Shown here: positions 6,318 through 42,231 of the stretch, piece by piece | Numbering within the stretch: the first letter of the stretch is position 1 | How the letters are laid out: the number at the start of each line of letters is the position of its first letter | IMG/VR virus record: IMGVR_UViG_3300033562_000245 | Coordinates: 54,499 to 118,498 of that record | Reading direction: 5' to 3' (one strand) | DNA: 64,000 nucleotides | Source of the DNA: a virus | Program-made: the position numbers and the translations under genes | Notes under the pieces: generated by a model | Told to the model about the DNA's origin: nothing | Databases searched by the model: none | What the model saw: only the letters and a program-made list of their open reading frames with translations

Positions 6318-6821
6318 ATGTTTTCCGTCGACGTCCCCACCGCGAAATATAAAAAACTAAGAATAAAAATGAGCTACTCTAAGCCGGGCCATTCTAAACC
6401 ATACATTAGTACATCTTTTATAACCTATCCTAGCGAATACCAAATAGGGGATGAAGGAGATATAGCGGTCTGCGAGTATAAAGTAGGTATAAGTTTCATA
6501 GCTTTTATACCTGCGATATATCTTCCAGATAATAAAAAGGTCATAATGGTATTAGTAAAAAATAGAAAAGCTCATAAATTTTTACCGTACGCTGAAGGTA
6601 TAGACGACATCGACGATTCGTTCATCAATGAAAATGCCACTACTATTATTCTATCTAGAAATTATAAAGACTCGTTGAGACGATTGATATTTTCTAAGGA
6701 TCTAAATAATAATTGGAACTTTAACCATTGTCAAGTTATTAGACTAAATCCAGATCTAATATTAGCAGGGGCTTATATAGAGCAAATAGAAGAAAAAGTA
6801 ACTTTTAGATTTCCTAACTAG
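6318..6821 (+). CDS. Hypothetical protein (167 aa)
   Basis: ORF with GAGG RBS. Confidence 0.65.
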   Translation: MFSVDVPTAKYKKLRIKMSYSKPGHSKPYISTSFITYPSEYQIGDEGDIAVCEYKVGISFIAFIPAIYLPDNKKVIMVLVKNRKAHKFLPYAEGIDDIDDSFINENATTIILSRNYKDSLRRLIFSKDLNNNWNFNHCQVIRLNPDLILAGAYIEQIEEKVTFRFPN

Positions 6822-6862
6822 AACAATTAAACATTTTAACCGAGATAAAAAGGAACTGTAAG

Positions 6863-7288
6863 ATGAAAACAATCATAGGGATTGGTGGTGGACTAATATA
6901 TGACCCGAACGAGTGTATCTTTATACATACGAATAAACATCAAGAAACCACAGCATTTAATAAGAAGCTAGTAGGAAAACTAGTTACCTCTATTAAATAC
7001 CACAAATCAAAACCTAAAGAAAAAGTTAAAAAGGTTAAGAATTATTTAATCGTACTTTTGGATAGTGATCATAAAACATTACTTCAAGTAAGTTTCACAA
7101 AGAAGAATGAATGGTTATCGGCCACAGAGACACTTATGTCTAGTGATTTACGATTATTCGCTAGTGAAGGATACATACCAAGACCTTGGACCGAACCTCC
7201 ATTCGGATTCCCGACGGTACCCCAGGACACGCTAAACTCTAAAACAAATTTCGACCATCAGATCCGTCCGGAACTAGTAAAATACTAA
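6863..7288 (+). CDS. Hypothetical protein (141 aa)
   Basis: ORF with AAGGA RBS. Confidence 0.65.
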   Translation: MKTIIGIGGGLIYDPNECIFIHTNKHQETTAFNKKLVGKLVTSIKYHKSKPKEKVKKVKNYLIVLLDSDHKTLLQVSFTKKNEWLSATETLMSSDLRLFASEGYIPRPWTEPPFGFPTVPQDTLNSKTNFDHQIRPELVKY

Positions 7289-7314
7289 TAACACTTCTCA
7301 CCAAAGGAACTAAA

Positions 7315-7788
7315 ATGCAAGAAATGCCTATTATAGAAAATGCTATCGTTACTGTAGAAGATAGCGTAGGAATAGAAATTCCTACCCAAGAAGTAGAGGA
7401 AACTCTCGACGTAGAAACAATGGGAAAGAAACTAAATAATATTAAAAAATTAGCTAAGATCCTTCGTTCTGCCACCGGCAAAACATCGCAAACAAAGAAA
7501 CCGAAATTTCTAGTTCTTGAACTGGATGAACCAACTTCAGGGTCATTCTATGACGTGTTCCGTGTTGGAAAGGATATGACTTTCCCTCAAGACCCCGGAT
7601 CAGCTTTCAACATAAATAAAATTTCTCTTCGTGGCCTAGTTCTTTATAAATCCAGAGGTAACACCCCTCTAAAAAGAAATGATACTGTTTTGATTGAAAC
7701 TGTGTGCGGGGGAAATAGTGTCGATATTTTTGCTTTCAAAGTTATAGAATCTATAGGCCGGAAAGTTCGTCTTGTGATTATGTCATAA
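7315..7788 (+). CDS. Hypothetical protein (157 aa)
   Basis: ORF with AAGGA RBS, followed by a hairpin. Confidence 0.65.
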   Translation: MQEMPIIENAIVTVEDSVGIEIPTQEVEETLDVETMGKKLNNIKKLAKILRSATGKTSQTKKPKFLVLELDEPTSGSFYDVFRVGKDMTFPQDPGSAFNINKISLRGLVLYKSRGNTPLKRNDTVLIETVCGGNSVDIFAFKVIESIGRKVRLVIMS

Positions 7789-14237: not shown

Positions 14238-14287
14238 GGTAAACTCCTCTGTTAATGATTATACACATTATTGTGTACATAAATAAC

Positions 14288-14620
14288 GATCACTTAAGAA
14301 TGCCTAGCTTAGCACAGAGGATAGTTACTGTCCTAAGTGATCTCGTTTTGGTGTAAAATCCTTTATTCTACACCTGAATGTGTGACGGTTAATAAAAGTA
14401 AGGCGATTAACTCTCTAAAGACATTTTAACAATAGACTTATGCGGTTACTTAGAACCTGTTATTTTTGAATCTCACATGTAAAGTAATTTACATTCTGGA
14501 TTCCTTTAATTGTCATTGTTAAAATTCTCGGTATAAACCCGTTCGTTTAACTTCAAGCAATAATTATAATATCACCCTCTTCTTTCTTATAAGTATATAC
14601 ACTTCGACTGGACGTCGAGG
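14288..14620 (+). ncRNA. Candidate structured RNA
   Basis: Nested stems 14288-96/14334-42, 14350-55/14369-74, 14424-33/14515-24, 14384-88/14539-43, 14602-14620; G-U pairs favour the plus strand. Confidence 0.3.
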
Positions 14621-15039
14621 TATAATTATGTCTCCTGTAACATAAACATATACTTACAATGACTGGGCGAGAGTTAATCTATTACCTTACATTCCTCACT
14701 AAAATATAAAACTACAACTTGGCACTCTGTAGTATATAAAAACTATAACATCATAGATGTATCTAATTTCTGAATCTCGATTATCGGCATAAACCTTGTT
14801 GGATTCTCTTAATTAGTTTCGTATACACTGACCAGAGGTCGTTACCGCTAAGTACGTTTGTATTCCCTAAATTCCAAATCATCGCTGATTATAGAAAAAC
14901 TTTATTCATAAGTATCTGTAAAATAATTAACAATCAATTTATTAAATTAATAAACCAAGGTAAAACAGTAGACACTTATAATTACTTTTGTGAGTACCAA
15001 GCTGTAGTTAAATTCATTATAACCCTTTCTAAATAATCG

Positions 15040-15900
15040 TAACTTAACTTTATTTTTTATATTAGTAATATTACTTAGTTACGGCAAATTCTTTACTTTC
15101 TCCAACACTTAACTATAATAAACTTAACTATATCCCTACATATCATACCAAACAATAATTATTATTTTACATTTGTTTTAAAAATCATCAATACGACAAT
15201 GAAGCGACCACAAAGTGGTCGCATCAGTTTTGATTAAGAGATAATAGCCGGTTAGTGTTCCTACAGAACACTAATCCGGCGATAGTTTAACCCAAATGAG
15301 ATATTTTATTATACCATATCAGTCGTACGCCTACGGCTTCCTCCTTAGTTGGTATAATAAAAATATATATATATTTGTCAGTTTAATTTTAATTGTTTTA
15401 CTTAGTCAGTATTGTTTTATTCGTGTGAGGGTTTTAGTTTCTTTTTGAAACTAAAGTAACCCGAATTAGAATAAAATCAGATGATTCTTTTTCCTTCGCT
15501 TTTGCTACGGAAAAGAATTTAAGCTAAAGCTTTTTCTAAACGGTTTACCTTCTGGTACTCAACCGAGCTTCTACGAACCTCTCTGAGTACTTATATACAA
15601 TGATATTGCCATTATTCTCTGACCATCCGGAGCCGGGTCTATGACCCTCTGATGGTATACTCTACTACTCTACTACTACGTAGTAGTAGAGTAGATAGGG
15701 AACGTGTGTGCGCATGCGCGCGTATATATATAGAACGATGCGTTTATTATATAATTCGTACTCGGCATTACAACTATGAATAGTATAAATTTAAACAATT
15801 TAAAAATCAAACGATAATATTCTGAATTAGTTGCAAAGTATTTACTGTAAAAAAATAATTATCAATGAAGATAATATGCATAAAAAATATACAATAAATT
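15040..15900. other. Hairpin/palindrome array plus AT-rich tract; candidate replication origin
   Basis: At least 8 inverted repeats, ACTTAACT direct repeats, a perfect 30-bp palindrome and a 31-bp alternating purine/pyrimidine run; no ORF; lies between divergent gene blocks. Confidence 0.4.
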
Positions 15901-15923: not shown

Positions 15924-16940
15924 ATGCCTCTCGAAAACACATATCAAATTCAAATAGATGCGCTATGCCGGATGTTTCCTGACATAGATAATTTTGTAGT
16001 CAACTATAACTCAGGTATCGAAGATGACGATGAACCGGAATATAATCAAGATATGTTTTTCAAATGTCTTGGTGTACTAGTTACTAAACTCTCTGAAGTT
16101 GGTATTTTATTCCACGATTCAAGTGAGGTTATTTCTTCCGGTGGTATGCGAGATTTTATCCCTTTGTTTGCCTTTACTTTTAATGATGATATAGTAAATA
16201 ATATACTTCGTCATGCTAGTGTTGAATTTGTAGAAGAACTGTCGGATATAATTCATTCTGATGATATCACAGATTCCGATACTATTCATTCGGTTATTGG
16301 TATGTTTAAAAATAACTTCACCTTGACAAACAGATGGGAAAATGCTGCCTACTACCACGATCTCTACTACAGCACTGAAGATTTTGTACTGTGGTTCAGA
16401 AGAATGTTCGAAAGGCTACATCAATTAGCTAGTCAGAGTACTACTGTCGACATCGAACTTAGTAATTTTTTTGCTTTAGTTTCTGGACATTTGTTCGATG
16501 TTTATAGTCTAATATGTGTTATTAACAGTAGACTAAATCTCTTGTTTACTCACGAAGAAATTGAATCGGTTATTCGAATCCACGATAGAGATTTACTCGC
16601 ATCTTCTACGGTAGATGCCCTTTCATTCGATAAAAGTTTGAATGTTTGTAACGGATACCATAACTATTCAACAGAAGGCGCTAAAGAAATATTTTCTACT
16701 CATCAATGTAATAACCCACATCACATCGAGTATTTTATAGAGAAAGGATTACAGCCTACAAAATTACAATTGGTTGTTACTATCTGCGATATTTATGAGA
16801 AGGGTATGGATTTAGAAGTATTTGAGAATAAATGCGCTGAGCTTATAGCTCTGGAGTTTCTCAATGAAGAATCTGTAAATTTAATTAAAAGTATCCTAAG
16901 TATCGTAAGAGGTATAGACTTCTCTAACTTGGTAGTTTAA
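15924..16940 (+). CDS. Hypothetical (possibly virion) protein upstream of vRNAP beta'
   Basis: 338-aa acidic ORF. Confidence 0.65.
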   Translation: MPLENTYQIQIDALCRMFPDIDNFVVNYNSGIEDDDEPEYNQDMFFKCLGVLVTKLSEVGILFHDSSEVISSGGMRDFIPLFAFTFNDDIVNNILRHASVEFVEELSDIIHSDDITDSDTIHSVIGMFKNNFTLTNRWENAAYYHDLYYSTEDFVLWFRRMFERLHQLASQSTTVDIELSNFFALVSGHLFDVYSLICVINSRLNLLFTHEEIESVIRIHDRDLLASSTVDALSFDKSLNVCNGYHNYSTEGAKEIFSTHQCNNPHHIEYFIEKGLQPTKLQLVVTICDIYEKGMDLEVFENKCAELIALEFLNEESVNLIKSILSIVRGIDFSNLVV

Positions 16941-20126: not shown

Positions 20127-20147
20127 ATATATTACCTAAGTAGAACT
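20127..20147 (+). promoter_or_regulatory. Promoter element ATATATTACCTAAGTAGAACT (copy 1)
   Basis: 21/21 identical to 29759-29779; contains TATATTAC. Confidence 0.65.
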
Positions 20148-29636: not shown

Positions 29637-29661
29637 GACCTGCGGCTAAACGCCGCAGGTC
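29637..29661. terminator. Hairpin, terminator-like
   Basis: GACCTGCGGC-TAAAC-GCCGCAGGTC. Confidence 0.75.
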
Positions 29662-29758: not shown

Positions 29759-29779
29759 ATATATTACCTAAGTAGAACT
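29759..29779 (+). promoter_or_regulatory. Promoter element ATATATTACCTAAGTAGAACT (copy 2)
   Basis: Identical to 20127-20147; upstream of the operon containing the nvRNAP beta subunit. Confidence 0.65.
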
Positions 29780-32922: not shown

Positions 32923-34437
32923 ATGCATAACGTTATTAAAGCGAAAATGATGCAGGCGATGAATATCGCTTTGTTTCAATCACCTCAGTTCGGGCATTTA
33001 GATGCCAATCTAAAGTCACGAGTCTATCAAGCATTTATGGCAGATGCTGATACGCTGATTCAACAGACTATTATCCCTAAACATATACAACAAGGTTTAG
33101 ACGATAACATGATCAACAACTATGCTATCATGTATATCAATGAAGCGGTAAAGATTCTGACTCAACAGAACCAATTCAATATCGGCAATATGTATCAGCA
33201 ACAGGGTATGTTTAATTCGGCACAGCAGATCCCTGGCGGACAGTACCAGGTAGCCCAATTTCAAAACATGTTCAACTCACCGATACCGCAGTCTGTACAG
33301 TGCGCGAATCAAATGATGCCAGCGCCTCAGCAAACATTTCAAAATCCGTCAAACAAAGGAGCAGAAAAAATGGTCGTAGTAGAAGATGTCAGCTCATGGG
33401 AACTTGGTGATTCTGAATCAGTAGTAGTCGACAATCAGATTGTTAGAATTACACGAGTTCCTGCCGAAGTTAACGGAGAGAAAGTGTTTGTTGGCGACGC
33501 CATTGTAAAATGTTGTGTGTCGGGATACAACGAAGCAATTAAAATCGTTGCCCCTTATATCAAAACTAAGAAGCGTCTGTTGAATATCGATTACATTCAA
33601 TCGATCCCTGTTGCAATTGACAATACAATATTTTCTGCCTTGAGAAACGAATATAACTCAAGACTGGAAATACTGGGAGGTCTTCCGACCGTGTCGTCCA
33701 TGAAGAAGTTGTTCGATGTTCTATTCGATTTCATGGGAGGCATGTCAGCCAAACAAGCCGAAGAACTAGAACGATATTTTATGTCTATTCTTAGGCCCCT
33801 TATCAGAAGTACAATTATCCATCCTGATAAACTGCGACAATCAATTATCACCGAAAATCTCAAAGATGTATATGAACTTCTTGATGACATTGAGACTAGA
33901 GGATATTTTTCGGATTGTGATTTTTATGATAATGTATTGATCATAGTTCTTATGAAAGGACTGATCGATTCTATCGATGCCAACAATTCGTTACTAACGG
34001 TCGACCACCTTGGCTCCAGGTTGGATATGATCAGATCAATGTACCATCATAAAGTAATCAATACAAATCTAGATAGCCAGTATTTCTTTGTATCGGAAGA
34101 GGACGCGGTGAAAGATCTTACTCTCAAGAATAAGTATATTGAAGTATGGGATGCTCTCAATAAACTTGTTGTTTGTTACACAACATCGGGCGTCATTTAC
34201 TCAAATATCGTTCCGAGTGATATGCAGTATAAATGCGGCGAACCTGGGTTTGAACCGTACGCTTTCACAGAACCGAAGAATATCATAGAAGGACTAATTT
34301 CACGTACACATCCAAATACATATTATCGGAAAAATAATATCGTATTGGAATTTTCCAAATTTAAGAAGATCGATTGCGTTTACGGTAGAATTTTGGATAA
34401 ATCTGTTAGAATTGCCGCAAATGAAATCGAGTACTAG
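32923..34437 (+). CDS. Hypothetical protein with a Gln/Met-rich linker
   Basis: 504-aa ORF with AGGAG RBS. Confidence 0.75.
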   Translation: MHNVIKAKMMQAMNIALFQSPQFGHLDANLKSRVYQAFMADADTLIQQTIIPKHIQQGLDDNMINNYAIMYINEAVKILTQQNQFNIGNMYQQQGMFNSAQQIPGGQYQVAQFQNMFNSPIPQSVQCANQMMPAPQQTFQNPSNKGAEKMVVVEDVSSWELGDSESVVVDNQIVRITRVPAEVNGEKVFVGDAIVKCCVSGYNEAIKIVAPYIKTKKRLLNIDYIQSIPVAIDNTIFSALRNEYNSRLEILGGLPTVSSMKKLFDVLFDFMGGMSAKQAEELERYFMSILRPLIRSTIIHPDKLRQSIITENLKDVYELLDDIETRGYFSDCDFYDNVLIIVLMKGLIDSIDANNSLLTVDHLGSRLDMIRSMYHHKVINTNLDSQYFFVSEEDAVKDLTLKNKYIEVWDALNKLVVCYTTSGVIYSNIVPSDMQYKCGEPGFEPYAFTEPKNIIEGLISRTHPNTYYRKNNIVLEFSKFKKIDCVYGRILDKSVRIAANEIEY

Positions 34438-34464
34438 ATTTAAATAATTAATACGTATTAGTTA

Positions 34465-34490
34465 ACCCACCGGATGCGCATCCGGTGGGT
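34465..34490. terminator. Perfect 26-bp palindrome, terminator-like
   Basis: ACCCACCGGATGCGCATCCGGTGGGT. Confidence 0.75.
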
Positions 34491-34696
34491 ATTATAAATT
34501 ATTAATAAAAGGATTTTAAAATGGATATTAAAGATATTTTCAAAGGATTTTGCATTTTTATGCACAAAAAGAACATATAAAAAAATAAGTTATCTTTAAA
34601 TAGTTTAAAAGTAATAAGACCAACACACTTAATTTTGCACATTGATTAAAGTAACGATAGAAGCTCGTTATTTGAGGATCATTGTATTGATAGGTC

Positions 34697-34705
34697 TATA
34701 TTACC
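34697..34705 (+). promoter_or_regulatory. TATATTAC(C) promoter motif upstream of the ncRNA candidate
   Basis: Motif 6 nt before GGG at 34711. Confidence 0.55.
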
Positions 34706-34710
34706 TTTTT

Positions 34711-35412
34711 GGGATTTGGGGAATAATCGGATAACCCTGATATCGACATGAGTACTGCAGTACTAAGGTGTTGATAGCTCCACATAGACGGCCTCGCCAA
34801 CTACCGATTAAAAGTTAGGAGAGAGCTAAATGCCGAGGAAGTCTTCTTACGAAGGCGGGTATGTATGTGCACGTATATACTTTAATAACTGTTACTGAGC
34901 ACTCAAGTTACCCTGATGCATTAGGCAATGGACGGGTTTATAAAGTGTTCCACATTCGTAAGTTTCGTCGATGCTCCGAATGTGAACAGGGGTGTTGGTA
35001 AAAACAACATCGCCTATCGACTTCTAAAAGCTCACTGGACGGGGATGAGAATGTCGAGCGGGTTAATTGGGCTACCATTAACCTCCCCAAACAAAGCGAC
35101 GGCCGCAGGGGTGAGAACGCCAGTCGCGTTTCGACGCATAAGCTTTAGTAGCATTAAATTGTGAAAAGCCCGTTGGAATGCCCTTGTATACATCGGTATA
35201 GATAAAGAGCACGCGAGTTACTTTGTCTATTCCACACCGAAAGGTCAAAACATAGAGTTCGCGGATCTCCTGTATTCTTAGAATAGAAGCTTGAACATTT
35301 GTTCTTGCTAATTACCTCTTGTTACACGAGAGGTAGGTTCGACAAAGTCGGAAAATCGTTTTAAGGTATAGGAAAGTATGTAGCTAGCCCACGGCGTTCG
35401 CCGTGGGCTAGT
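34711..35412 (+). ncRNA. Large structured ncRNA candidate (~650-700 nt), with an RNase P-like P4 signature
   Basis: GC-richer than flanks, no credible ORF, more than 12 helices, nested long-range pairings, G-U pairs on plus strand, promoter motif upstream and hairpin terminator 35383-35412. Confidence 0.7.
35383..35412. terminator. Hairpin, terminator-like
   Basis: GCTAGCCCACGGC-GTTC-GCCGTGGGCTAGT. Confidence 0.8.
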
Positions 35413-35447
35413 CTATAATTAATTAACGTTAATCATCGGAGGTTACC

Positions 35448-36089
35448 ATGCAAAAAGAATATTGTGCTGACTTAATCCAGCTGTTAGGTACTCTCCCTAA
35501 CGATATGATTTGGATTACAGACGAACATCTTAAAACAAAGTACATAAGTCCTAATGTATTGCTTATAAGAGGCATCTCTCAAGAAGAGGCGCTGGAAGAA
35601 AGATTCGAAGATAAATTCACACCAAATTCACAAGAGATTATTTCTAAAATCATGGAAAGTGTGAAGTTCAGTTTAGAAAATAACACTCCTCACAAATTAA
35701 ATACAATAGCCAGCGAAATGTACAGAAGTGATGGAACGATAATGGGCGTCGAAATATCGTTTCAAATTAAAATGCAGGACGGAAAGGTTAAGTATATTGC
35801 TGGGGTCACGAGAGATGTTAGTGATAGAATATTGACGGATAAACTTAATGTTACTATAGAATTATCCAAAATGTTTTCTGATAAACTAAGCCAACCTATA
35901 CATGTTCTCAACGGAATTTCTACATTGATAGGAGATATGGTTCCAGCAAAATATGTGGAGTTAATGCAAAAACAACTAGATACTCTAACAGAAGTTGTTA
36001 GAGCTGTACAGCGTGTTAACTATGAAGATCCATTAACGGATCCTTTGTACTTGGCGAGGTTAAATAAGTTAAACGATATTAATTTATAA
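35448..36089 (+). CDS. PAS/PAC sensor domain with a degenerate His-kinase DHp segment
   Basis: MIWITDEHLKTKYISP...RSDGTIMGVEISF...IAGVTRDVSDR; then SDKLSQPIHVLNG; no HATPase domain; GGAGG RBS. Confidence 0.85.
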   Translation: MQKEYCADLIQLLGTLPNDMIWITDEHLKTKYISPNVLLIRGISQEEALEERFEDKFTPNSQEIISKIMESVKFSLENNTPHKLNTIASEMYRSDGTIMGVEISFQIKMQDGKVKYIAGVTRDVSDRILTDKLNVTIELSKMFSDKLSQPIHVLNGISTLIGDMVPAKYVELMQKQLDTLTEVVRAVQRVNYEDPLTDPLYLARLNKLNDINL

Positions 36090-36102
36090 AGGAGAGAAAA
36101 TT

Positions 36103-38271
36103 ATGCTTTATTTTACTGACCAACCAGAAAAACTTTTTGACACGAAAACAAACTGGGGGCGACCGATTGAAAACTTAAAGCTGACGATCGTTCGCATATC
36201 GAACCGAGATGTCAATGAGCTTCTCGAATTCAATGAAGACGGTATCGTTTATATAGAATCCGCAAAGAGATATTTAAATGCGATTCTTTCGGATATGTTT
36301 GGTTTAGGTAATGGATCCGAGGATAGGGACGATATCGATAAGGTTGAAATAAAAGAAGATACTGTTATTATCCTTGTCGATGAAGACGATGATTCCACCG
36401 ATCTAGAGTTTATTTTCTACGTAGCTAAGGTAGAAAGCGGGTATGTAAAAGACGCCGTCGATGACTTCGAAGAAGAAGAGTGTGAGGAGTCAAGAAAACC
36501 CGGAGCCACGTTCTCGAAACTTTGGAAAGAGTTTCTACACAGCACCGCAAAAGAAGCAAAAACAACTAAAGCCGATGACGTGAATGAAATCATACGAGTT
36601 CCGATCGGATTTACCAATCATTATAATGTCACTCTTGACAAAGCCAACGCTGATTGTGAGATTTATTTTACAGAAGCCGGGCATGTGTCAGTAAATCCAA
36701 AACCTGGAGATGTTATACCTTATCAGAGTAATTCGCCTTATATGCAAATACAGAATGGGTATTTAAAGGGTCCTTTAAATGCGCCTTATGGTTTCTTGCC
36801 ACAGTTACCAATGACTGGATACATCTTCTTTGATAACGACAATACGTGGAAAAGTTTCGATGAAAGAGTTACAGGTCGATCCTTGGATCACGTAACCAAA
36901 GAAACTGTACGGCTTTGGGTTAGCCTCTATGTCAGCGGTACTTGGGATAAGGTATTGCAGCGCGATGAACAAGAAACATCATGTCACACATCTCCAGATT
37001 ATTTGGCCGGCGATCGTACTATCGAGACGGCGATACTTAGCGCAAAACATGTAGGTTACGACACCGAAGATTCGTCACGTAATGCACTACATAGCCAATT
37101 AAAAACGGCAGTCATATGTGCGATAAGAGAAATAAAAAATCCGGCACCGCCTCTTCGTTTTATAACCCAGAGATTAGGGAACACTTACTCTTACCAAAAT
37201 GTATTGAAGGCTGTTTCTGATTTGTGCGTACAAGGGGATCTAGAAAGAGTTATAATAAGTCCGTATGAGGTAGGGTATAAACTCGTCAAAAACGAAGACA
37301 AGCGTAGCGGTGCAGAACAACCAATTCAAGAAATTGATCCGAGTGATATGGGTGTTATCGTGAAGATGTTTTCTTCTGATAAAAGAGAAACGTGTAGCGA
37401 TGAGGAAAAGTTACTATCTACAGCCGATTATATAACTACACCTTCTAGTGTTAAGACGGTCGGAAGTCACGTAAAACAAACAATGTTTGGCGAATGCCCG
37501 GCATCATCACCCACCTCTATTTCGTATAGGAAAAAAGTAGGCTCGGATGAAGGCCCAGAAGAACCGGTTTTTGATAAAGAACTGTTGTATGAAATGATCA
37601 TGGATATGGTAACATACTCAAGAGATCAGGTCATACTTCATTACGAAGTTCTTCACAAAACAAGGAAAAGATACAATCATCTGGTAGTGGCTGCGGCTCT
37701 TGATGGACTATGCAAAAGAGGTGAATTGGTACGTGAGCGCACATCACCTTACGAAATTAGATATAAACTCGCGAAAAAAGATAAAAAGGAGAGTGACCTA
37801 ATAAAGGAGAATATAGAAGTTAAGGGATTTATAACCAGAGTAATCCAAGCCATAAATATCCCAGTTATAAACGAACAGGAACTTTTTCTTTTTCTAGGAC
37901 AGAAGTATGACGCGGGTGTTATCAGGCAAAATCTCGGCCAGCTTTGCCAAGAAGGTATGTTGGAAAGAGTTCCTGTAGACGGCGATTGTTTTGGTTATAG
38001 GTTTAAAGAAGTTTTGGACGAAAAACAAAAAATTTCTACCGGATTGAGATCTTTGATTATGAACACAATCAAGGAGTCTCCACACCAGACAGCATCAGCG
38101 GATGACGTCATCTATAAAGCAAAAGATACATACAGCCCTTCGATTGTAACCGAAATACTTACTGATTTATTCCTAACTGGTTATTTGAACCGTAAGGAAG
38201 ATGGGCCGCAAGGAACAACGCGTTACGAATTCACAAAAAAGGGACTACAGTCCTTTGTTTTTCGAGGTTAG
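36103..38271 (+). CDS. Protein with four tandem winged-helix-like repeats
   Basis: Repeats L.DL...G.LER....Y.(Y/F) at about aa 340-395, 495-555, 575-630, 650-715. Confidence 0.7.
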   Translation: MLYFTDQPEKLFDTKTNWGRPIENLKLTIVRISNRDVNELLEFNEDGIVYIESAKRYLNAILSDMFGLGNGSEDRDDIDKVEIKEDTVIILVDEDDDSTDLEFIFYVAKVESGYVKDAVDDFEEEECEESRKPGATFSKLWKEFLHSTAKEAKTTKADDVNEIIRVPIGFTNHYNVTLDKANADCEIYFTEAGHVSVNPKPGDVIPYQSNSPYMQIQNGYLKGPLNAPYGFLPQLPMTGYIFFDNDNTWKSFDERVTGRSLDHVTKETVRLWVSLYVSGTWDKVLQRDEQETSCHTSPDYLAGDRTIETAILSAKHVGYDTEDSSRNALHSQLKTAVICAIREIKNPAPPLRFITQRLGNTYSYQNVLKAVSDLCVQGDLERVIISPYEVGYKLVKNEDKRSGAEQPIQEIDPSDMGVIVKMFSSDKRETCSDEEKLLSTADYITTPSSVKTVGSHVKQTMFGECPASSPTSISYRKKVGSDEGPEEPVFDKELLYEMIMDMVTYSRDQVILHYEVLHKTRKRYNHLVVAAALDGLCKRGELVRERTSPYEIRYKLAKKDKKESDLIKENIEVKGFITRVIQAINIPVINEQELFLFLGQKYDAGVIRQNLGQLCQEGMLERVPVDGDCFGYRFKEVLDEKQKISTGLRSLIMNTIKESPHQTASADDVIYKAKDTYSPSIVTEILTDLFLTGYLNRKEDGPQGTTRYEFTKKGLQSFVFRG

Positions 38272-38286
38272 AGAGAGTAAGTAACG

Positions 38287-38318
38287 TTAACTAGACGGGT
38301 ATGCTCCCGTCTAGTTAA
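38287..38318. terminator. Hairpin, terminator-like
   Basis: TTAACTAGACGGG-TATGCT-CCCGTCTAGTTAA. Confidence 0.75.
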
Positions 38319-38371
38319 TACAAATTCTTTACATCTATCTAAAAGGAACATAACAACAGGAGAAAAAGTAT

Positions 38372-38593
38372 ATGCTAACTAAAGAAGAACACCTAGATCG
38401 GTGTAAAAAACGAGCTTTGGAATATGTGGATAAAGGGGATCTCCAACGAGCGTTTGCTTCAATGATTTCTGATCTGAGTGCGCACCCTGAAATATCCGAC
38501 CATATAGCGATTGGATTTGGGGTGGCGATAATGCGCTCAGGAGGGTTATTCGACGCCAATTCTATGAGAAAATTCATAGAAGATTTTAGATAG
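38372..38593 (+). CDS. Small hypothetical phage protein (73 aa)
   Basis: AGGAG RBS; compact helical sequence EHLDRCKKRALEY...ASMISDL..HPE. Confidence 0.7.
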   Translation: MLTKEEHLDRCKKRALEYVDKGDLQRAFASMISDLSAHPEISDHIAIGFGVAIMRSGGLFDANSMRKFIEDFR

Positions 38594-38627
38594 TACTTAT
38601 ATATTGGGGAAAGGGTGGGGGATTAAA

Positions 38628-39227
38628 ATGGCATCTATTGTTAAAGAAGAGGATACCAGAGAAACACTTAAATATAGACTGATTAAATTAACACAACAGT
38701 CAATTCTAACCCAAAAAGAAAATGCGGAGTTAAAAGTAAAAGTAAAAGTTCTCCAAGAACTATTAGCAGCTAATGAAAAAAGAACATTTGATTTTTTAAC
38801 TAATATTTTTAAAGAACAATTAGAAAAGGGGGTGTTGGGGAGTAGTCCTTTAAATGGTACAATAGGTAAAAAGCAAATTGAATCGCAGGAACTTGAGCCG
38901 AATAACTGTAGTCCGTCAGAGGCGGGCTATGAAAAGAAATACGCTGATATAGAGAAAGAGAAAAAATTCAAAGTTGCTTATTCACTTGTGACAAATAAGA
39001 TCCTTAATTTCGAGTCGGATTCTTTTAAACACGTCGATCTGACCAAGGCCCTAAACAAGAACCATTGTAGGTCAGAACAAATATTGAAAGTACTAAAGGA
39101 TTTACACAGAAATGGATTTATTACCAGTGTAAAGATGGATAAGGTGAGTAGATCTGGAAGACCGTCGTCACCTTCTTATCGCATCACTGATAAATTCTCT
39201 AAAGAGTTTAAAAAAGAATTTTATTGA
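38628..39227 (+). CDS. Coiled-coil plus C-terminal winged-helix protein
   Basis: QILKVLKDLHRNGFITSVK...SGRPSSPSYRIT; start moved to ATG 38628 (GGGGG RBS). Confidence 0.65.
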   Translation: MASIVKEEDTRETLKYRLIKLTQQSILTQKENAELKVKVKVLQELLAANEKRTFDFLTNIFKEQLEKGVLGSSPLNGTIGKKQIESQELEPNNCSPSEAGYEKKYADIEKEKKFKVAYSLVTNKILNFESDSFKHVDLTKALNKNHCRSEQILKVLKDLHRNGFITSVKMDKVSRSGRPSSPSYRITDKFSKEFKKEFY

Positions 39228-39229
39228 AC

Positions 39230-39256
39230 TATACCTGGGCCCGATGCCCAGGTATA
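39230..39256. terminator. Bidirectional terminator-like hairpin
   Basis: TATACCTGGGC-CCGAT-GCCCAGGTATA between convergent genes. Confidence 0.8.
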
Positions 39257-39278
39257 ATACATATTTATTTTTTTTAAC

Positions 39279-41174
39279 TTAATCGGGAATCTCTACTACG
39301 TCATCAAAAAATTGCTTACTGTCTGCTATTATTTCTGCCATACGTGTAGAAAGATTTGGTTCTTCACCTGTATCCAATTCAAACGTTATAATAAAACAGT
39401 CAGTATCGGCACCTATTCTGTGGATACGATCACTAGTCTGTAAATATTCATGATACCTAAAAGGTCTGTTCAAGAATATTAATGTATTGGCCGCTGTTAA
39501 TGTCACACCGGTTGATAACATATTAATACTAGCAATGAGAGGATTGATTTTAGGATTAGTTTGAAATTCATGAATATGGGCCGCTACGTCAGATGCCGTT
39601 TTACCGTATACAGGAATAGAATGGTATCCCTTACTTATAAAGTATTCATTAGCTGTTTCGATAGTGTCTGTGTATGATGTAAATAATACTGTCTTTTTTA
39701 TAGCTTCATCAACATAAGAAGTTATATCAGAATGTTTAAGTATATCACTTGTCATTTGCATACGTTTGCGAGTAAACAATTGACCTATAACTTCACCTTG
39801 AACTTTTAAATTTACGTATTTAACAGCAGCCTTACAATTATTAAAAAGTTTCTTCAGATCATTGGGAAGGATAGGAATGATAACTTCTTTCTCATACTTA
39901 TTAATAGTTTGTATAAGCATTCTATCGTTACTATTTAGTACCGATACAACCCTACTATTAAAATCTTCAACGGTACTTATATAAAATTGAAATTCTCTAT
40001 CGTTTTTAAATTTTGAGATACTTTTCAAATACCCCATAACGATATAGAAATCTTTTTTATAAGAAGCCATCTTATCGGCATGGAATTTCATACGTGTTTT
40101 TATAAATTCGGCAACTTCTTTTTTGATCGTAGTAGCCGTATAATCAGATCCGTTTGGAAGTTTAATTTTAACCGTTGACTCATATTTTTCAGGTAAAGCT
40201 AATACTTCACTCTTAAGTTTCCTATGCATCATAGATTGAAGTCTAGCCCTAAGAATATCAGTACCTATATTCGTATTGAGACCAAATGCTTTCTTAAAAA
40301 TAATAACAGCTTCTTTATCAAAGAAATTATCAATAGCAAGTAGTAGAGGTATGATTTCTACACCAGCATTCTTCAGAGGAGTTCCGCTCATCAATAGCAT
40401 ATCGACAGTTCCGGTTCGCTCCCGAAGCTCAATAAGTTTATTAGTTCTCCCTGACGCCATACGTAAAAAGTTGTGACTCTCGTCTACTATAACTCCAACG
40501 CTATCGCCTAATTTATTTAAGATGGGATCAAGTTTATCAATAGCTTCGTAGTTTACGATAAAAAAATCATAACTTGTATTTAGGGTACTTTGTCCCGAAA
40601 CAAATATCTTTTTGGTTTTATTAAAATACTTTTCAATATGATGAACCCAAACAGTTTCGAGAATCGATTTTGGGGCTAGAATAATAACCTTCTTTTTACC
40701 GAGCCCGACCATTAGTATTAAAGAGGTCAGTGTTTTTCCAAGCCCCTGATCAAAAGAAAGTAGAGCCCCATTTAAACAAGCCCTTTGTCTAATTATATCG
40801 TAATTTTCAACGAACTCAGTCTGATAAGGAAGAGGTGTACAACTCATCTCTGCATGGACCAACTTAATATCAAATCTATTTGTATACGAACTGCTAGCCG
40901 CAATCCCTACCCAAGTATTATTAAATATTTCACCGCTTAGACTCATAGGGTAGTTAAACTTATCTAATAAATATAATAACTCAGGAATAAAAAACTTATG
41001 GACTTTTACAGTTCTGTTGTCCCAGGATATAAAACCTAGCGCTTCATATAAATTAGCAAGTCTACTAGTACCATAGAATCTTCTTAGTTTGGCAGTAAAT
41101 GTCTTCATAGGGAACCCGCTAATAATGTATGAATTACCAGTTTCTTTTATTTGTTTAAAAAAATTAGCAAACAT
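39279..41174 (-). CDS. SNF2-family (SF2) helicase
   Basis: DQGLGKT, VIVDESH, MSGTP, TGVTLTAA, QTSDRIHRIG. Confidence 0.92.
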   Translation of the reverse strand: MFANFFKQIKETGNSYIISGFPMKTFTAKLRRFYGTSRLANLYEALGFISWDNRTVKVHKFFIPELLYLLDKFNYPMSLSGEIFNNTWVGIAASSSYTNRFDIKLVHAEMSCTPLPYQTEFVENYDIIRQRACLNGALLSFDQGLGKTLTSLILMVGLGKKKVIILAPKSILETVWVHHIEKYFNKTKKIFVSGQSTLNTSYDFFIVNYEAIDKLDPILNKLGDSVGVIVDESHNFLRMASGRTNKLIELRERTGTVDMLLMSGTPLKNAGVEIIPLLLAIDNFFDKEAVIIFKKAFGLNTNIGTDILRARLQSMMHRKLKSEVLALPEKYESTVKIKLPNGSDYTATTIKKEVAEFIKTRMKFHADKMASYKKDFYIVMGYLKSISKFKNDREFQFYISTVEDFNSRVVSVLNSNDRMLIQTINKYEKEVIIPILPNDLKKLFNNCKAAVKYVNLKVQGEVIGQLFTRKRMQMTSDILKHSDITSYVDEAIKKTVLFTSYTDTIETANEYFISKGYHSIPVYGKTASDVAAHIHEFQTNPKINPLIASINMLSTGVTLTAANTLIFLNRPFRYHEYLQTSDRIHRIGADTDCFIITFELDTGEEPNLSTRMAEIIADSKQFFDDVVEIPD

Positions 41175-41178
41175 GTAT

Positions 41179-41424
41179 TTAACCTATATCCGATAAAAAT
41201 AAGACCAGTTCGGCAGGGGAGCAAAACTCTTTGAGTTCGGCAATTTCATCGTCGAAATTTAATTCGTTAGTGAATCTTTCAAAGGCAGACTCATTGTGTT
41301 CGGCTACCTGTAGATCGATACCGTCAACTATATTAGCACAAATATCATTTAAATTATAAAATTTATCATTATTTACAGGAGAATCTTTTAGTGCTTTATT
41401 TATAATATCAAAAACATTAGACAT
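41179..41424 (-). CDS. Small acidic hypothetical protein (81 aa)
   Basis: GAGGT RBS; abuts the helicase start. Confidence 0.65.
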   Translation of the reverse strand: MSNVFDIINKALKDSPVNNDKFYNLNDICANIVDGIDLQVAEHNESAFERFTNELNFDDEIAELKEFCSPAELVLFLSDIG

Positions 41425-41480
41425 AGTTATACCTCGTTATAAAATAATTGTGATTGTAAATAGTTCTTATATTATAAACC

Positions 41481-41561
41481 GAAACACGTAGAATAATTGT
41501 AAAATTACCTGGGGTAAAAACCCCAGGTAATTAGAATGAGACCCGTGTGTTAGTTAACGAG
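41481..41561 (+). repeat. Direct repeat copy 1 flanking the HNH gene (includes terminator 41503-41532)
   Basis: Near-identical to 42149-42231. Confidence 0.9.
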
Positions 41562-41648
41562 GTAAAGCCTTTATTTCTTTATACTAATCCACCTAATATA
41601 ATCTAGGTAATGGTGTTGTATTTATAAATAATAATTAATGAGGGTGTC

Positions 41649-42164
41649 ATGACCGAAAGAAGAAACAAAAGGAACGATATAGTTTTACCAGAAGAGTTTC
41701 AGAAAAAATTAATTGAATTATATCCGGACGTAAATAAAATCTATCCTTATTTACATAAAAAAAGTAACAGAGTGGCACTACGATTGTTAAATAATAAAGA
41801 TCACATTAAAGGAACTTATTTGTCTAGGGCATCATTAGAAGTTAAATTAGGGAGGAGATTAACAAAAAACGAGACTTGCGACCACATAGATGAAGACAAG
41901 ACTAACGACCACCCTGATAATTTACAAATATTAAGCAGGGCACAAAATACTAGTAAAGGACATGCAATGGGTCATTGCCAGGCACCACCACTACACATCG
42001 GAGAAAATCAATGGCAAGCAATCTTAGATCCTGACAAAGTAAGAGAAATTAGAAGGTTGAAATCAGAAGGGTCTTCTGTTGGATCGATATCAAGAAAATT
42101 CGGTATGAAACCGCATAGTATTTATGACGTCACAAGACGTAGATCGTGGAAACACGTAGAATAA
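41649..42164 (+). CDS. HNH homing endonuclease with C-terminal HTH
   Basis: TCDHIDEDKTNDHPDNLQILSRAQN; GEN...AIL...VREIRRL...SISRKFG...SWKHV. Confidence 0.9.
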   Translation: MTERRNKRNDIVLPEEFQKKLIELYPDVNKIYPYLHKKSNRVALRLLNNKDHIKGTYLSRASLEVKLGRRLTKNETCDHIDEDKTNDHPDNLQILSRAQNTSKGHAMGHCQAPPLHIGENQWQAILDPDKVREIRRLKSEGSSVGSISRKFGMKPHSIYDVTRRRSWKHVE

Positions 42165-42231
42165 TATTAATTAATTACCTGGGGTTTTTACCCCAGGTAA
42201 TTAGAATGAGACCCGTGTGTTAGTTAACGAG
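42149..42231 (+). repeat. Direct repeat copy 2 (HNH 3' end, terminator 42172-42203, 3' end of 42220..43044)
   Basis: Near-identical to 41481-41561. Confidence 0.9.

What the first reader, a model, noticed from the sequence alone, without database searches (positions are those of the whole stretch)
34711..35412. Large (~650-700 nt) structured non-coding RNA with its own promoter and terminator
Seen: GC-enriched, ORF-free stretch starting 6 nt after TATATTACC and ending in a 13-bp hairpin. Local helices include 34742-34775, 34841-34856, 34946-34987, 34991-35011, 35061-35083, 35096-35127, 35201-35227, 35236-35245 (GAAA tetraloop) and 35313-35335. GACGGGTTT (34931-39)/AAGCCCGTT (35166-74) closes a multi-branched domain. 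ATAGAC (34784-89)/GTCTAT (35225-30) is a further long-range pair. Wobbles are G-U on the plus strand. Known: large phage-associated ncRNAs of this size exist (ROOL, GOLLD). Inference: a member of such a class or a new one; I cannot assign it by eye.
Basis: partly seen in the sequence, partly recalled or inferred. Interest (0 to 1): 0.9.

Follow-up and report, generated by a model that had tools for sequence, protein, structure and literature searches.

The report
Orphan large RNA candidate, jumbo phage
A 700-base, gene-free, GC-rich stretch of an uncultured phiKZ-like giant phage, framed by an early-promoter motif and a strong hairpin, most likely yields a large folded non-coding RNA. No relative of it was found anywhere, so its fold and job remain unproven.

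Summary
The physical observation holds. Window 34711-35412 is non-coding: no open frame under any stop reassignment, no 3-base periodicity, and codon scores near zero. It is the GC-richest feature of its neighbourhood (0.44, against 0.22 in the adjacent spacer and 0.33-0.42 in neighbouring genes). It starts about 10 nt after TATATTACCT, the published phiKZ early-promoter core, and ends in a perfect 13-bp hairpin.

Its two long-range helices are disfavoured.

Folding beats shuffles on the + strand (z -4.0 without the terminator; - strand -1.8). However, 3 of 27 control windows of the same genome do as well, so the thermodynamic support is modest.

It is not ROOL, GOLLD, RNase P, an intron, or the RaK2-type large RNA family that this scan found earlier in other jumbo phages (on other DNA, unrelated to this one).

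No homologue was found. The only relative phage (77-82% protein identity) lacks the whole island, and the neighbouring proteins are orphans. No covariation test is therefore possible, and no RNA-seq run is available.

Best reading (about 0.5): an early, about 0.7-kb structured RNA released by termination upstream of a PAS-protein operon. This is the architecture of phiKZ 5'UTR-derived RNAs, at 3-10 times their size.

The parts
34465..34490 (+). Terminator-type hairpin that closes the upstream RNA-polymerase-like operon (the 504-aa gene ends at 34437)
   Evidence: A 13-nt perfect inverted repeat (I1). The relative L003 keeps it, with a compensatory C-G to U-A change.
34491..34696 (.). AT-rich spacer (GC 0.22) between the terminator and the promoter motif
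   Evidence: It holds only a 19-codon mini-ORF whose codon score is about 0.
34697..34706 (+). TATATTACCT, an early (virion RNA polymerase) promoter-like motif; the predicted start is near 34711
   Evidence: TATATTAC is the published predicted phiKZ promoter core (PMC7058600, Table 2). Jumbo-phage early motifs are centred near -10 (PMC7598289). TATATTACC occurs 4 times in 118 kb, 3 of them intergenic on the + strand ahead of co-oriented units. L003 keeps GTATATATTAC at the orthologous operon start.
34711..35183 (+). Predicted 5' domain: about 12 hairpins enclosed by the long-range helices 34715-34722/35084-35091 (p 0.88) and 34711-34713/35181-35183 (p 0.66)
   Evidence: This is a single-sequence prediction only.
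35195..35264 (+). Linker hairpins: 35195-35233 (z -3.95) and 35237-35264
35268..35373 (+). Predicted 3' domain: three hairpins on a four-way junction, closed by a stem of 16-18 bp
   Evidence: -38.8 kcal/mol, z -5.8, with 0 of 200 shuffles as stable. The boundaries were chosen after the fact.
35383..35412 (+). 13-bp GC-rich hairpin with an AU-rich tail and no U-run: the 3' end of the RNA, or a partial terminator
   Evidence: -26.8 kcal/mol, z -8.1. Hairpins of the same style stand at other operon ends: 29637, 38293, 41512 and 62371.
35437..36089 (+). GGAGG ribosome site and the PAS-domain gene, 35 nt after the hairpin, with no promoter motif of its own

Best explanation
The stretch is the gene for an early-transcribed, non-coding, heavily base-paired RNA of about 0.7 kb.

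Proposed mechanism:
1. The phage's virion-packaged RNA polymerase starts about 10 nt after TATATTACCT, near 34711.
2. The transcript folds into a large 5' domain (34711-35183) and a compact three-hairpin 3' domain (35268-35373).
3. Most polymerases stop at, or the 3' end is protected by, the 13-bp hairpin at 35383-35412. This releases a stable RNA.
4. A fraction reads through into the PAS / 722-aa / 73-aa / 207-aa genes, which have no promoter motif of their own.

This is the architecture of the phiKZ '5'UTR-derived ncRNAs made by premature termination', but 3-10 times larger.

Shown from sequence: non-coding status, GC enrichment, the promoter motif, the hairpin, and strand-specific excess folding.

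Inferred: transcription, the exact ends, the fold, and any action in trans. One candidate is a scaffold or decoy that perhaps works with the co-inherited orphan proteins.
For: NOT CODING
- Every frame has mixed stops; none opens under any single-stop reassignment, and GC at the three codon positions differs little.
- Local period-3 power is 0.46-1.85. The median for coding windows is 3.57, and only 7% of them fall below 2.
- Codon log-odds of the internal ORFs run from -0.31 to 0.19. Real genes score 0.31-0.55.
- Stop-to-stop pieces hit no Pfam or PHROG family.
- There is no residual similarity to the genes that fill this site in the relative phage.

COMPOSITION
- GC is 0.442, against 0.223 in the adjacent spacer and 0.25-0.41 in other intergenic regions.

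FOLDING
- 67% of bases are predicted paired and 13% of pairs are G-U.
- z is -6.1 with the terminator. Without it, z is -4.0 on + and -1.8 on -.
- The 3' domain has z -5.8.

BOUNDARIES
- The promoter core is identical to the published phiKZ motif and lies at the expected distance.
- The motif is enriched in intergenic + strand sites and conserved at an orthologous site in L003.
- The hairpin is of the same type as other operon ends.

PRECEDENT
- phiKZ makes 17 candidate 5'UTR RNAs by premature termination, some with more than 90% termination (PMC10914365).
Against: - No homologue was found, so there is no covariation and no evidence of purifying selection. The only other copy is the same phage at 99.9% identity, with an identical RNA region.
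- No RNA-seq holder is available.
- The thermodynamic signal is not exceptional for this genome. 3 of 27 control windows reach z <= -3.8. GC-corrected local stability of the body is only mildly low, with mean z -0.69.
- The hairpin lacks a U-run, so whether it terminates transcription is unknown.
- A relative with 77-82% protein identity lacks the whole island. The RNA is therefore dispensable for this phage type.
Confidence: 0.5

Rival explanations
1. It is purely a cis-acting 5' leader or attenuator. The 700 nt exist only to control read-through at the 35383-35412 hairpin into the PAS / 722-aa operon, and the released RNA has no function of its own.
For: Only 35 nt separate the hairpin from the PAS start codon, with a ribosome site but no TATATTAC motif. 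All island genes are co-oriented. phiKZ 5'UTR terminators show two read-through modes. GGGCUA at 35069-35074 repeats part of the terminator's 3' arm and could in principle compete for the 5' arm. This comes from my own reading and has about a 0.16 chance expectation.
Against: Known leaders and riboswitch-type attenuators are several times shorter. GC enrichment and pairing run along the whole 670 nt, not only next to the terminator. No match to any Rfam cis-regulatory family.
Confidence: 0.2
2. It is a functionless or DNA-level element: a remnant of foreign, GC-richer DNA brought in with the island (for example a dead promoter-gene-terminator moron), or a replication or packaging site.
For: The island 34438-42200 is absent from the close relative L003. 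The neighbouring 722-aa gene is also GC-elevated at 0.40. The folding excess is within the range of some coding windows. An AT-rich tract lies directly upstream.
Against: There is no period-3 signal even locally, and no protein similarity, so any coding past is ancient. There are no iterons or direct-repeat arrays and no turn in cumulative GC skew. The excess structure is strand-specific and G-U pairs are on the + strand. Dense phage genomes rarely keep 0.7 kb of junk. The GC content is higher than that of every neighbouring gene.
Confidence: 0.2
3. It is an RNase P-like ribozyme.
For: The 7-bp helix with a bulged U can be drawn, and the 5' strand resembles GAGGAAAGUCC. The 9-mer is expected only 0.0035 times in 702 nt, but this was noticed after the fact.
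Against: No RNase P model matches, either in cmscan at E<=10 or in single-family searches with the bacterial A, bacterial B and archaeal models, whose controls detect distant RNase P RNAs in 11-13 of 14 genomes. Both strands sit in more stable local hairpins (p 0.64 and 0.98). Forcing the helix costs +18.5 kcal/mol. No P2 partner follows the 3' strand, from my reading. The 118 kb held contains no phage tRNA to process.
Confidence: 0.02
4. It encodes one or more small proteins, for example the 78-codon ORF 34928-35164.
For: ATG-started ORFs of 46-78 codons exist in the stretch.
Against: Codon log-odds are about 0. There is no periodicity, no family match and no good ribosome site.
Confidence: 0.03

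Closest known systems
phiKZ 5'UTR-derived ncRNA candidates made by premature termination (ONT-cappable-seq; PMC10914365)
   Same: A phiKZ-type phage. A phage promoter is followed by a structured untranslated RNA, a hairpin terminator just upstream of a co-oriented gene, and probably partial read-through.
   Different: Those RNAs are under 250 nt (71 and 141 nt in the validated cases). This one is about 700 nt with some 18 predicted hairpins. Expression has not been shown here.
ROOL (RF03087) and GOLLD (RF02032), the large ornate RNAs of phages and prophages that form RNA-only cages (PMC12286853)
   Same: Phage-borne, 0.55-0.85 kb, non-coding, richly branched and of unknown function.
   Different: No covariance-model match. 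It is not next to tRNA genes. It has no family of homologues, and multimerisation is untested.
Multi-copy large RNA family of RaK2/121Q-type jumbo phages
   Same: An ORF-free, GC-shifted gap of about 0.7 kb with a promoter and a terminator, in a jumbo phage.
   Different: A profile HMM built from the three RaK2 copies does not find it. A covariance model of their conserved core scores at most 9.8 bits here, against 161-185 bits for true copies. It is single-copy here, in another phage lineage, and has another promoter type.
Bacterial RNase P RNA (RF00010 / RF00011)
   Same: A P4-like 7-bp helix with a bulged U can be drawn between two distant segments.
   Different: No model match, the rest of the topology is missing, and stable local hairpins compete for both strands.

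Membership tests
ROOL (RF03087) | Match to the family covariance model | tested here: not met
   No match at the gathering score in 64 kb, nor at E<=10 on 686 nt. The single-family search was also empty, but its controls rang nowhere, so that call alone is uninformative.
ROOL / GOLLD | Often located next to tRNA islands in phages or prophages | tested here: not met
   ARAGORN finds no tRNA in the window or in the whole 118-kb contig. The contig is only about 46% of the genome.
GOLLD (RF02032) | Match to the family covariance model | tested here: not met
   In the single-family search, 14 candidates were scored and none reached E<=10.
ROOL / GOLLD | Homo-oligomeric RNA-only assembly | not testable with these tools
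   This needs native gels, SEC-MALS or cryo-EM of the transcript.
RNase P RNA | Match to the bacterial A, bacterial B or archaeal covariance model | tested here: not met
   The controls ring in 11-13 of 14 genomes.
RNase P RNA | P4 helix with a bulged U formed by conserved regions I and V | tested here: inconclusive
   The helix 34839-34846 / 35286-35292 can be drawn. Forcing it costs +18.5 kcal/mol, and both strands lie in local hairpins.
RNase P RNA | P2 and P1 3' strands directly after the P4 3' strand, pairing with the 5' end | tested here: not met
By inspection, no complement to 34777-34789 follows 35292.
RaK2-type jumbo-phage large RNA (this scan) | Sequence or structure similarity to the conserved core | tested here: not met
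   An nhmmer profile of the RaK2 copies (279606-280344, 191252-191990, 6815-7523) finds nothing at the RNA, even with --max and E<=100. The covariance model R1 scores at most 9.8 bits with filters off.
RaK2-type jumbo-phage large RNA (this scan) | Several diverged copies per genome | tested here: not met
   Only the copy itself is found in the 118 kb, by BLAST and by nhmmer.
phiKZ-type 5'UTR-derived ncRNA | Phage promoter, then a terminator inside the 5'UTR of a co-oriented gene | tested here: met
   TATATTACCT at 34697, the hairpin at 35383-35412, and the PAS start codon at 35448.
phiKZ-type 5'UTR-derived ncRNA | Short transcript (under 250 nt) that accumulates over the full-length mRNA | tested here: not met
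   The length here is about 700 nt. Accumulation cannot be tested because no RNA run is available.
Group I / group II intron | Model match and interruption of a host gene | tested here: not met
   No Rfam match. The upstream 504-aa gene aligns over 100% of its length with its 515-aa homologue and has its own terminator.

The most novel reading that the evidence does not exclude
This is a lineage-specific, early-expressed giant RNA of a phiKZ-like (probably nucleus-forming) phage. It adopts a defined three-dimensional fold and acts in trans in the first minutes of infection. It would act either as an RNA-only assembly like ROOL and GOLLD, or as the RNA partner of the co-inherited orphan proteins (the PAS protein and the 722-aa protein). 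That would make it a new class of ornate viral RNA. Earlier notes of this scan report other unrelated large RNA candidates behind early promoters in uncultured phiKZ-like phages. I could not check those notes.
Probability: 0.3. Interest if true: 0.75.

Novelty: new variant of a known kind. Interest (0 to 1): 0.5.

Why it matters
Large structured RNAs without a known job (OLE, ROOL, GOLLD) are rare. Each new one has revealed unexpected RNA architecture.

None is described for phiKZ-like phages, which transcribe with their own polymerases and wall off their DNA. An abundant 0.7-kb RNA made by the injected polymerase would be a new player in the earliest stage of infection.

The RNA is a singleton, so comparative methods cannot validate it. 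Only direct biochemistry on the transcript can settle the question, and this limits the present value of the finding.

Tried and rejected
HOMOLOGUE HUNT (all empty)
- blastn 'distant' against 50,697 phage records.
- Protein-anchored scans of IMG/VR and of JGI metagenomes.
- Upstream 504-aa protein: one relative only, and its locus L003 lacks the island.
- PAS protein: none. 722-aa protein: none, by word search and by full phmmer against 1.84 billion representatives.
- Exact 20-23-mers of the RNA: 3 metagenome hits with unrelated flanks, consistent with chance; 0 in IMG/VR; 0 in GTDB genomes.
- nhmmer and BLAST against the rest of the contig and L003: nothing.
- The nearest isolated phages share only 23-27% identity in the tail sheath. 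The 524-aa polymerase-like protein has no tblastn hit. I therefore did not run single-sequence models on them.

SEQUENCING RUNS
- One DNA run of a microbial-mat metagenome holds the stretch. No RNA holder is listed.
- Laid contigs show one identical contig over 32869-35341 and no variant in the RNA.
- A joint 31200->36374 rests on a 21-letter side, so I disregarded it.

NEIGHBOURS
- The ESM Atlas and permissive Pfam searches give only weak winged-helix hints for the 722-aa protein: TM below 0.3 and pTM 0.19.

OTHER POINTS
- My first genome-wide stability scan timed out and was redone at 106 nt.
- I recalled RF01998 as GOLLD. It is in fact group-II-D1D4-1; GOLLD is RF02032.
- The resemblance between the RNA's terminator (CTAGCC...GGCTAG) and a hairpin after the SNase gene of L003 led nowhere, because the bodies share nothing.

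Full report
CONTEXT
The window is bases 54499-118498 of a 118.5-kb IMG/VR virus contig, estimated 46% complete. Its genes mark an uncultured phiKZ-like jumbo phage:
- a phiKZ-type tail sheath and virion proteins, and a PHROG 'polymerase' family in the operon just upstream of the finding;
- a two-subunit topoisomerase II and an SNF2 helicase.

The phage is far from isolated phages. Tail sheath identity is 23-27%, and the 524-aa polymerase-like protein has no tblastn hit. The only sequencing run that holds the stretch is a microbial-mat metagenome.

THE OBSERVATION
Between the 504-aa gene (ends at 34437) and the PAS-domain gene (starts at 35448) lie 1010 bases without a credible ORF. They are laid out as follows:
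- a perfect 13-bp hairpin at 34465-34490;
- a very AT-rich spacer (GC 0.22);
- TATATTACCT at 34697-34706;
- about 670 bases at GC 0.44;
- a second perfect 13-bp hairpin at 35383-35412;
- 35 nt later, a GGAGG ribosome site and the PAS start codon.

The body is GC-richer than every neighbouring gene (0.32-0.42) and falls in the top 1% of 665-nt windows of the contig.

IT IS NOT CODING
- No frame opens under any single-stop reassignment, and GC differs little between the three codon positions.
- Local period-3 power is 0.46-1.85 in all six windows. Coding windows have a median of 3.57, and only 7% fall below 2.
- The internal ORFs have codon log-odds near zero, against 0.31-0.55 for 22 genes.
- No stop-to-stop piece hits Pfam or PHROGs.
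- The genes that occupy this site in the relative phage have left no trace.

A recently decayed gene is therefore unlikely.

FOLDING
- RNAfold gives -238.7 kcal/mol for 34711-35412 on the + strand (z -6.1) and z -2.8 on the - strand.
- The terminator alone contributes much of this. Without it, z is -4.0 on + and -1.8 on - with 60 shuffles.
- 67% of bases are predicted paired, and 31 of 237 pairs are G-U. These would be A-C mismatches on the other strand.
- The model prefers a 5' domain closed by 34715-34722/35084-35091 (p 0.88) and a 106-nt three-hairpin 3' domain (z -5.8).

Controls temper this picture:
- 27 other 665-nt windows of the same contig average z about -1.5, and three of them reach -3.8 to -5.75.
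- After correcting for GC, 106-nt windows of the body are only mildly stable: mean z -0.69, with 15 of 16 negative.
- The extreme values genome-wide belong to terminators, and the RNA's own terminator ranks first.

The excess structure is real and strand-specific, but on its own it is not proof.

BOUNDARIES
- TATATTAC is the published predicted phiKZ promoter core, and it also lies inside the 201phi2-1 consensus (PMC7058600, Table 2).
- Early motifs of RNA-polymerase-encoding jumbo phages are about 10 nt long, AT-rich and centred near -10 (PMC7598289).
- TATATTACC occurs four times in the 118 kb. Three are intergenic, on the + strand, and ahead of co-oriented units. About 0.3 intergenic occurrences are expected by chance.
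- Two of those sites share TATATTACCTAAGTAGAAC.
- The relative L003 keeps GTATATATTAC at the orthologous start of the polymerase-like operon while its flanks diverge.
- Perfect GC-rich hairpins with AU-rich tails close other units at 29637, 38293, 41512 and 62371.
- The hairpin at 34465-34490 is conserved in L003 through a compensatory pair.

KNOWN FAMILIES
- Rfam 15 gives nothing at gathering scores in the whole window. At E<=10 on 1.5 kb or on 686 nt it gives only terminator-type noise.
- Single-family searches of the contig with RNase P (bacterial A, bacterial B, archaeal), ROOL, GOLLD and a group II intron domain are empty. The RNase P controls ring in 11-13 of 14 genomes.
It competes with stable local hairpins, costs +18.5 kcal/mol and lacks the surrounding RNase P topology.
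- Earlier notes of this scan describe a multi-copy large RNA family in RaK2-type jumbo phages. I located three copies in RaK2. I then built a profile HMM and a covariance model of their conserved core. Neither recognises this RNA: at most 9.8 bits, against 161-185 bits for true copies.
- So this is not that family. The scan has not found this RNA before on other DNA.

HOMOLOGUES
None was found.
- A JGI contig (L004) is the same phage at 99.9% identity. None of its 10 differences falls in the RNA region.
- The only relative (L003, from a Logan assembly) shares 52%, 77% and 82% identity in three proteins. After the conserved terminator it carries a 56-aa gene, a staphylococcal-nuclease-like gene and a 157-aa gene. 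These stand in place of the whole block from the RNA through the PAS, 722-aa, 73-aa and 207-aa genes to the SNF2 and HNH genes.
- The PAS protein and the 722-aa protein have no relatives, even by full phmmer against 1.84 billion representatives.
- Protein-anchored and RNA-pattern scans of IMG/VR, JGI metagenomes and GTDB genomes returned nothing, or chance hits only.
- The SRA word index finds one run. Its contigs show no variant copy at 80% identity or more.

Covariation therefore cannot be tested. No RNA run is listed.

INTERPRETATION
The best-supported reading is a transcribed, non-coding, structured RNA of about 0.7 kb, made from an early promoter and ended or stabilised by the 13-bp hairpin, with some read-through into the PAS operon.

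This mirrors the phiKZ 5'UTR-derived RNAs produced by premature termination (PMC10914365), except for its size. Its size and branching resemble ROOL and GOLLD (PMC12286853).

I give this reading about 0.5. A purely cis-acting leader gets about 0.2, and a functionless or DNA-level remnant of the acquired island gets about 0.2. RNase P, a known family, or small proteins together get under 0.1.

What the RNA does is inference only. It is expressed with, and was inherited with, a set of orphan proteins in an accessory island. A scaffold or decoy role early in infection is therefore the most economical guess.

Noticed in passing
window 34438-42200: The RNA and the PAS, 722-aa, 73-aa, 207-aa, SNF2 helicase and HNH genes form an accessory island. 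The relative phage L003 (77-82% identity in conserved proteins) has three other genes at this site, including a staphylococcal-nuclease-like one. The 722-aa protein has no relative among 1.84 billion representatives.
   Followed up: partly
window 14238-15295 (gap to 15923): About 1.06 kb has no ORF of 40 codons or more on either strand. It is AT-rich (0.31) and lies between divergently oriented genes. There is no Rfam match and no repeat array. It may be a divergent promoter zone or an origin.
   Followed up: partly
window 20128-20146 and 29760-29778: The identical 19-mer TATATTACCTAAGTAGAAC stands ahead of two + strand operons (the topoisomerase block and the polymerase-like block). It looks like an early promoter plus a shared initial transcribed sequence.
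   Followed up: partly
window 34465-34490 vs L003 11579-11604: The terminator hairpin after the 504/515-aa gene is conserved between the two phages, with one compensatory C-G to U-A change.
   Followed up: yes
window 39301-39917: The same metagenome run holds a second contig that is 83% identical to part of the SNF2 helicase gene, at about half the depth. This points to a diverged relative of that gene in the sample. That contig does not cover the RNA.
   Followed up: no
G000:C1:7500-8165 and 16443-16893 (outside the window): A GC 0.50 stretch inside an 1877-aa ORF folds with z -4.6. Separately, a 451-nt gap at GC 0.43 has no ORF of 80 aa or more.
   Followed up: no
Rfam accession in earlier notes: Several earlier notes of this scan cite GOLLD as RF01998. 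Here RF01998 is group-II-D1D4-1 and GOLLD is RF02032.
   Followed up: yes
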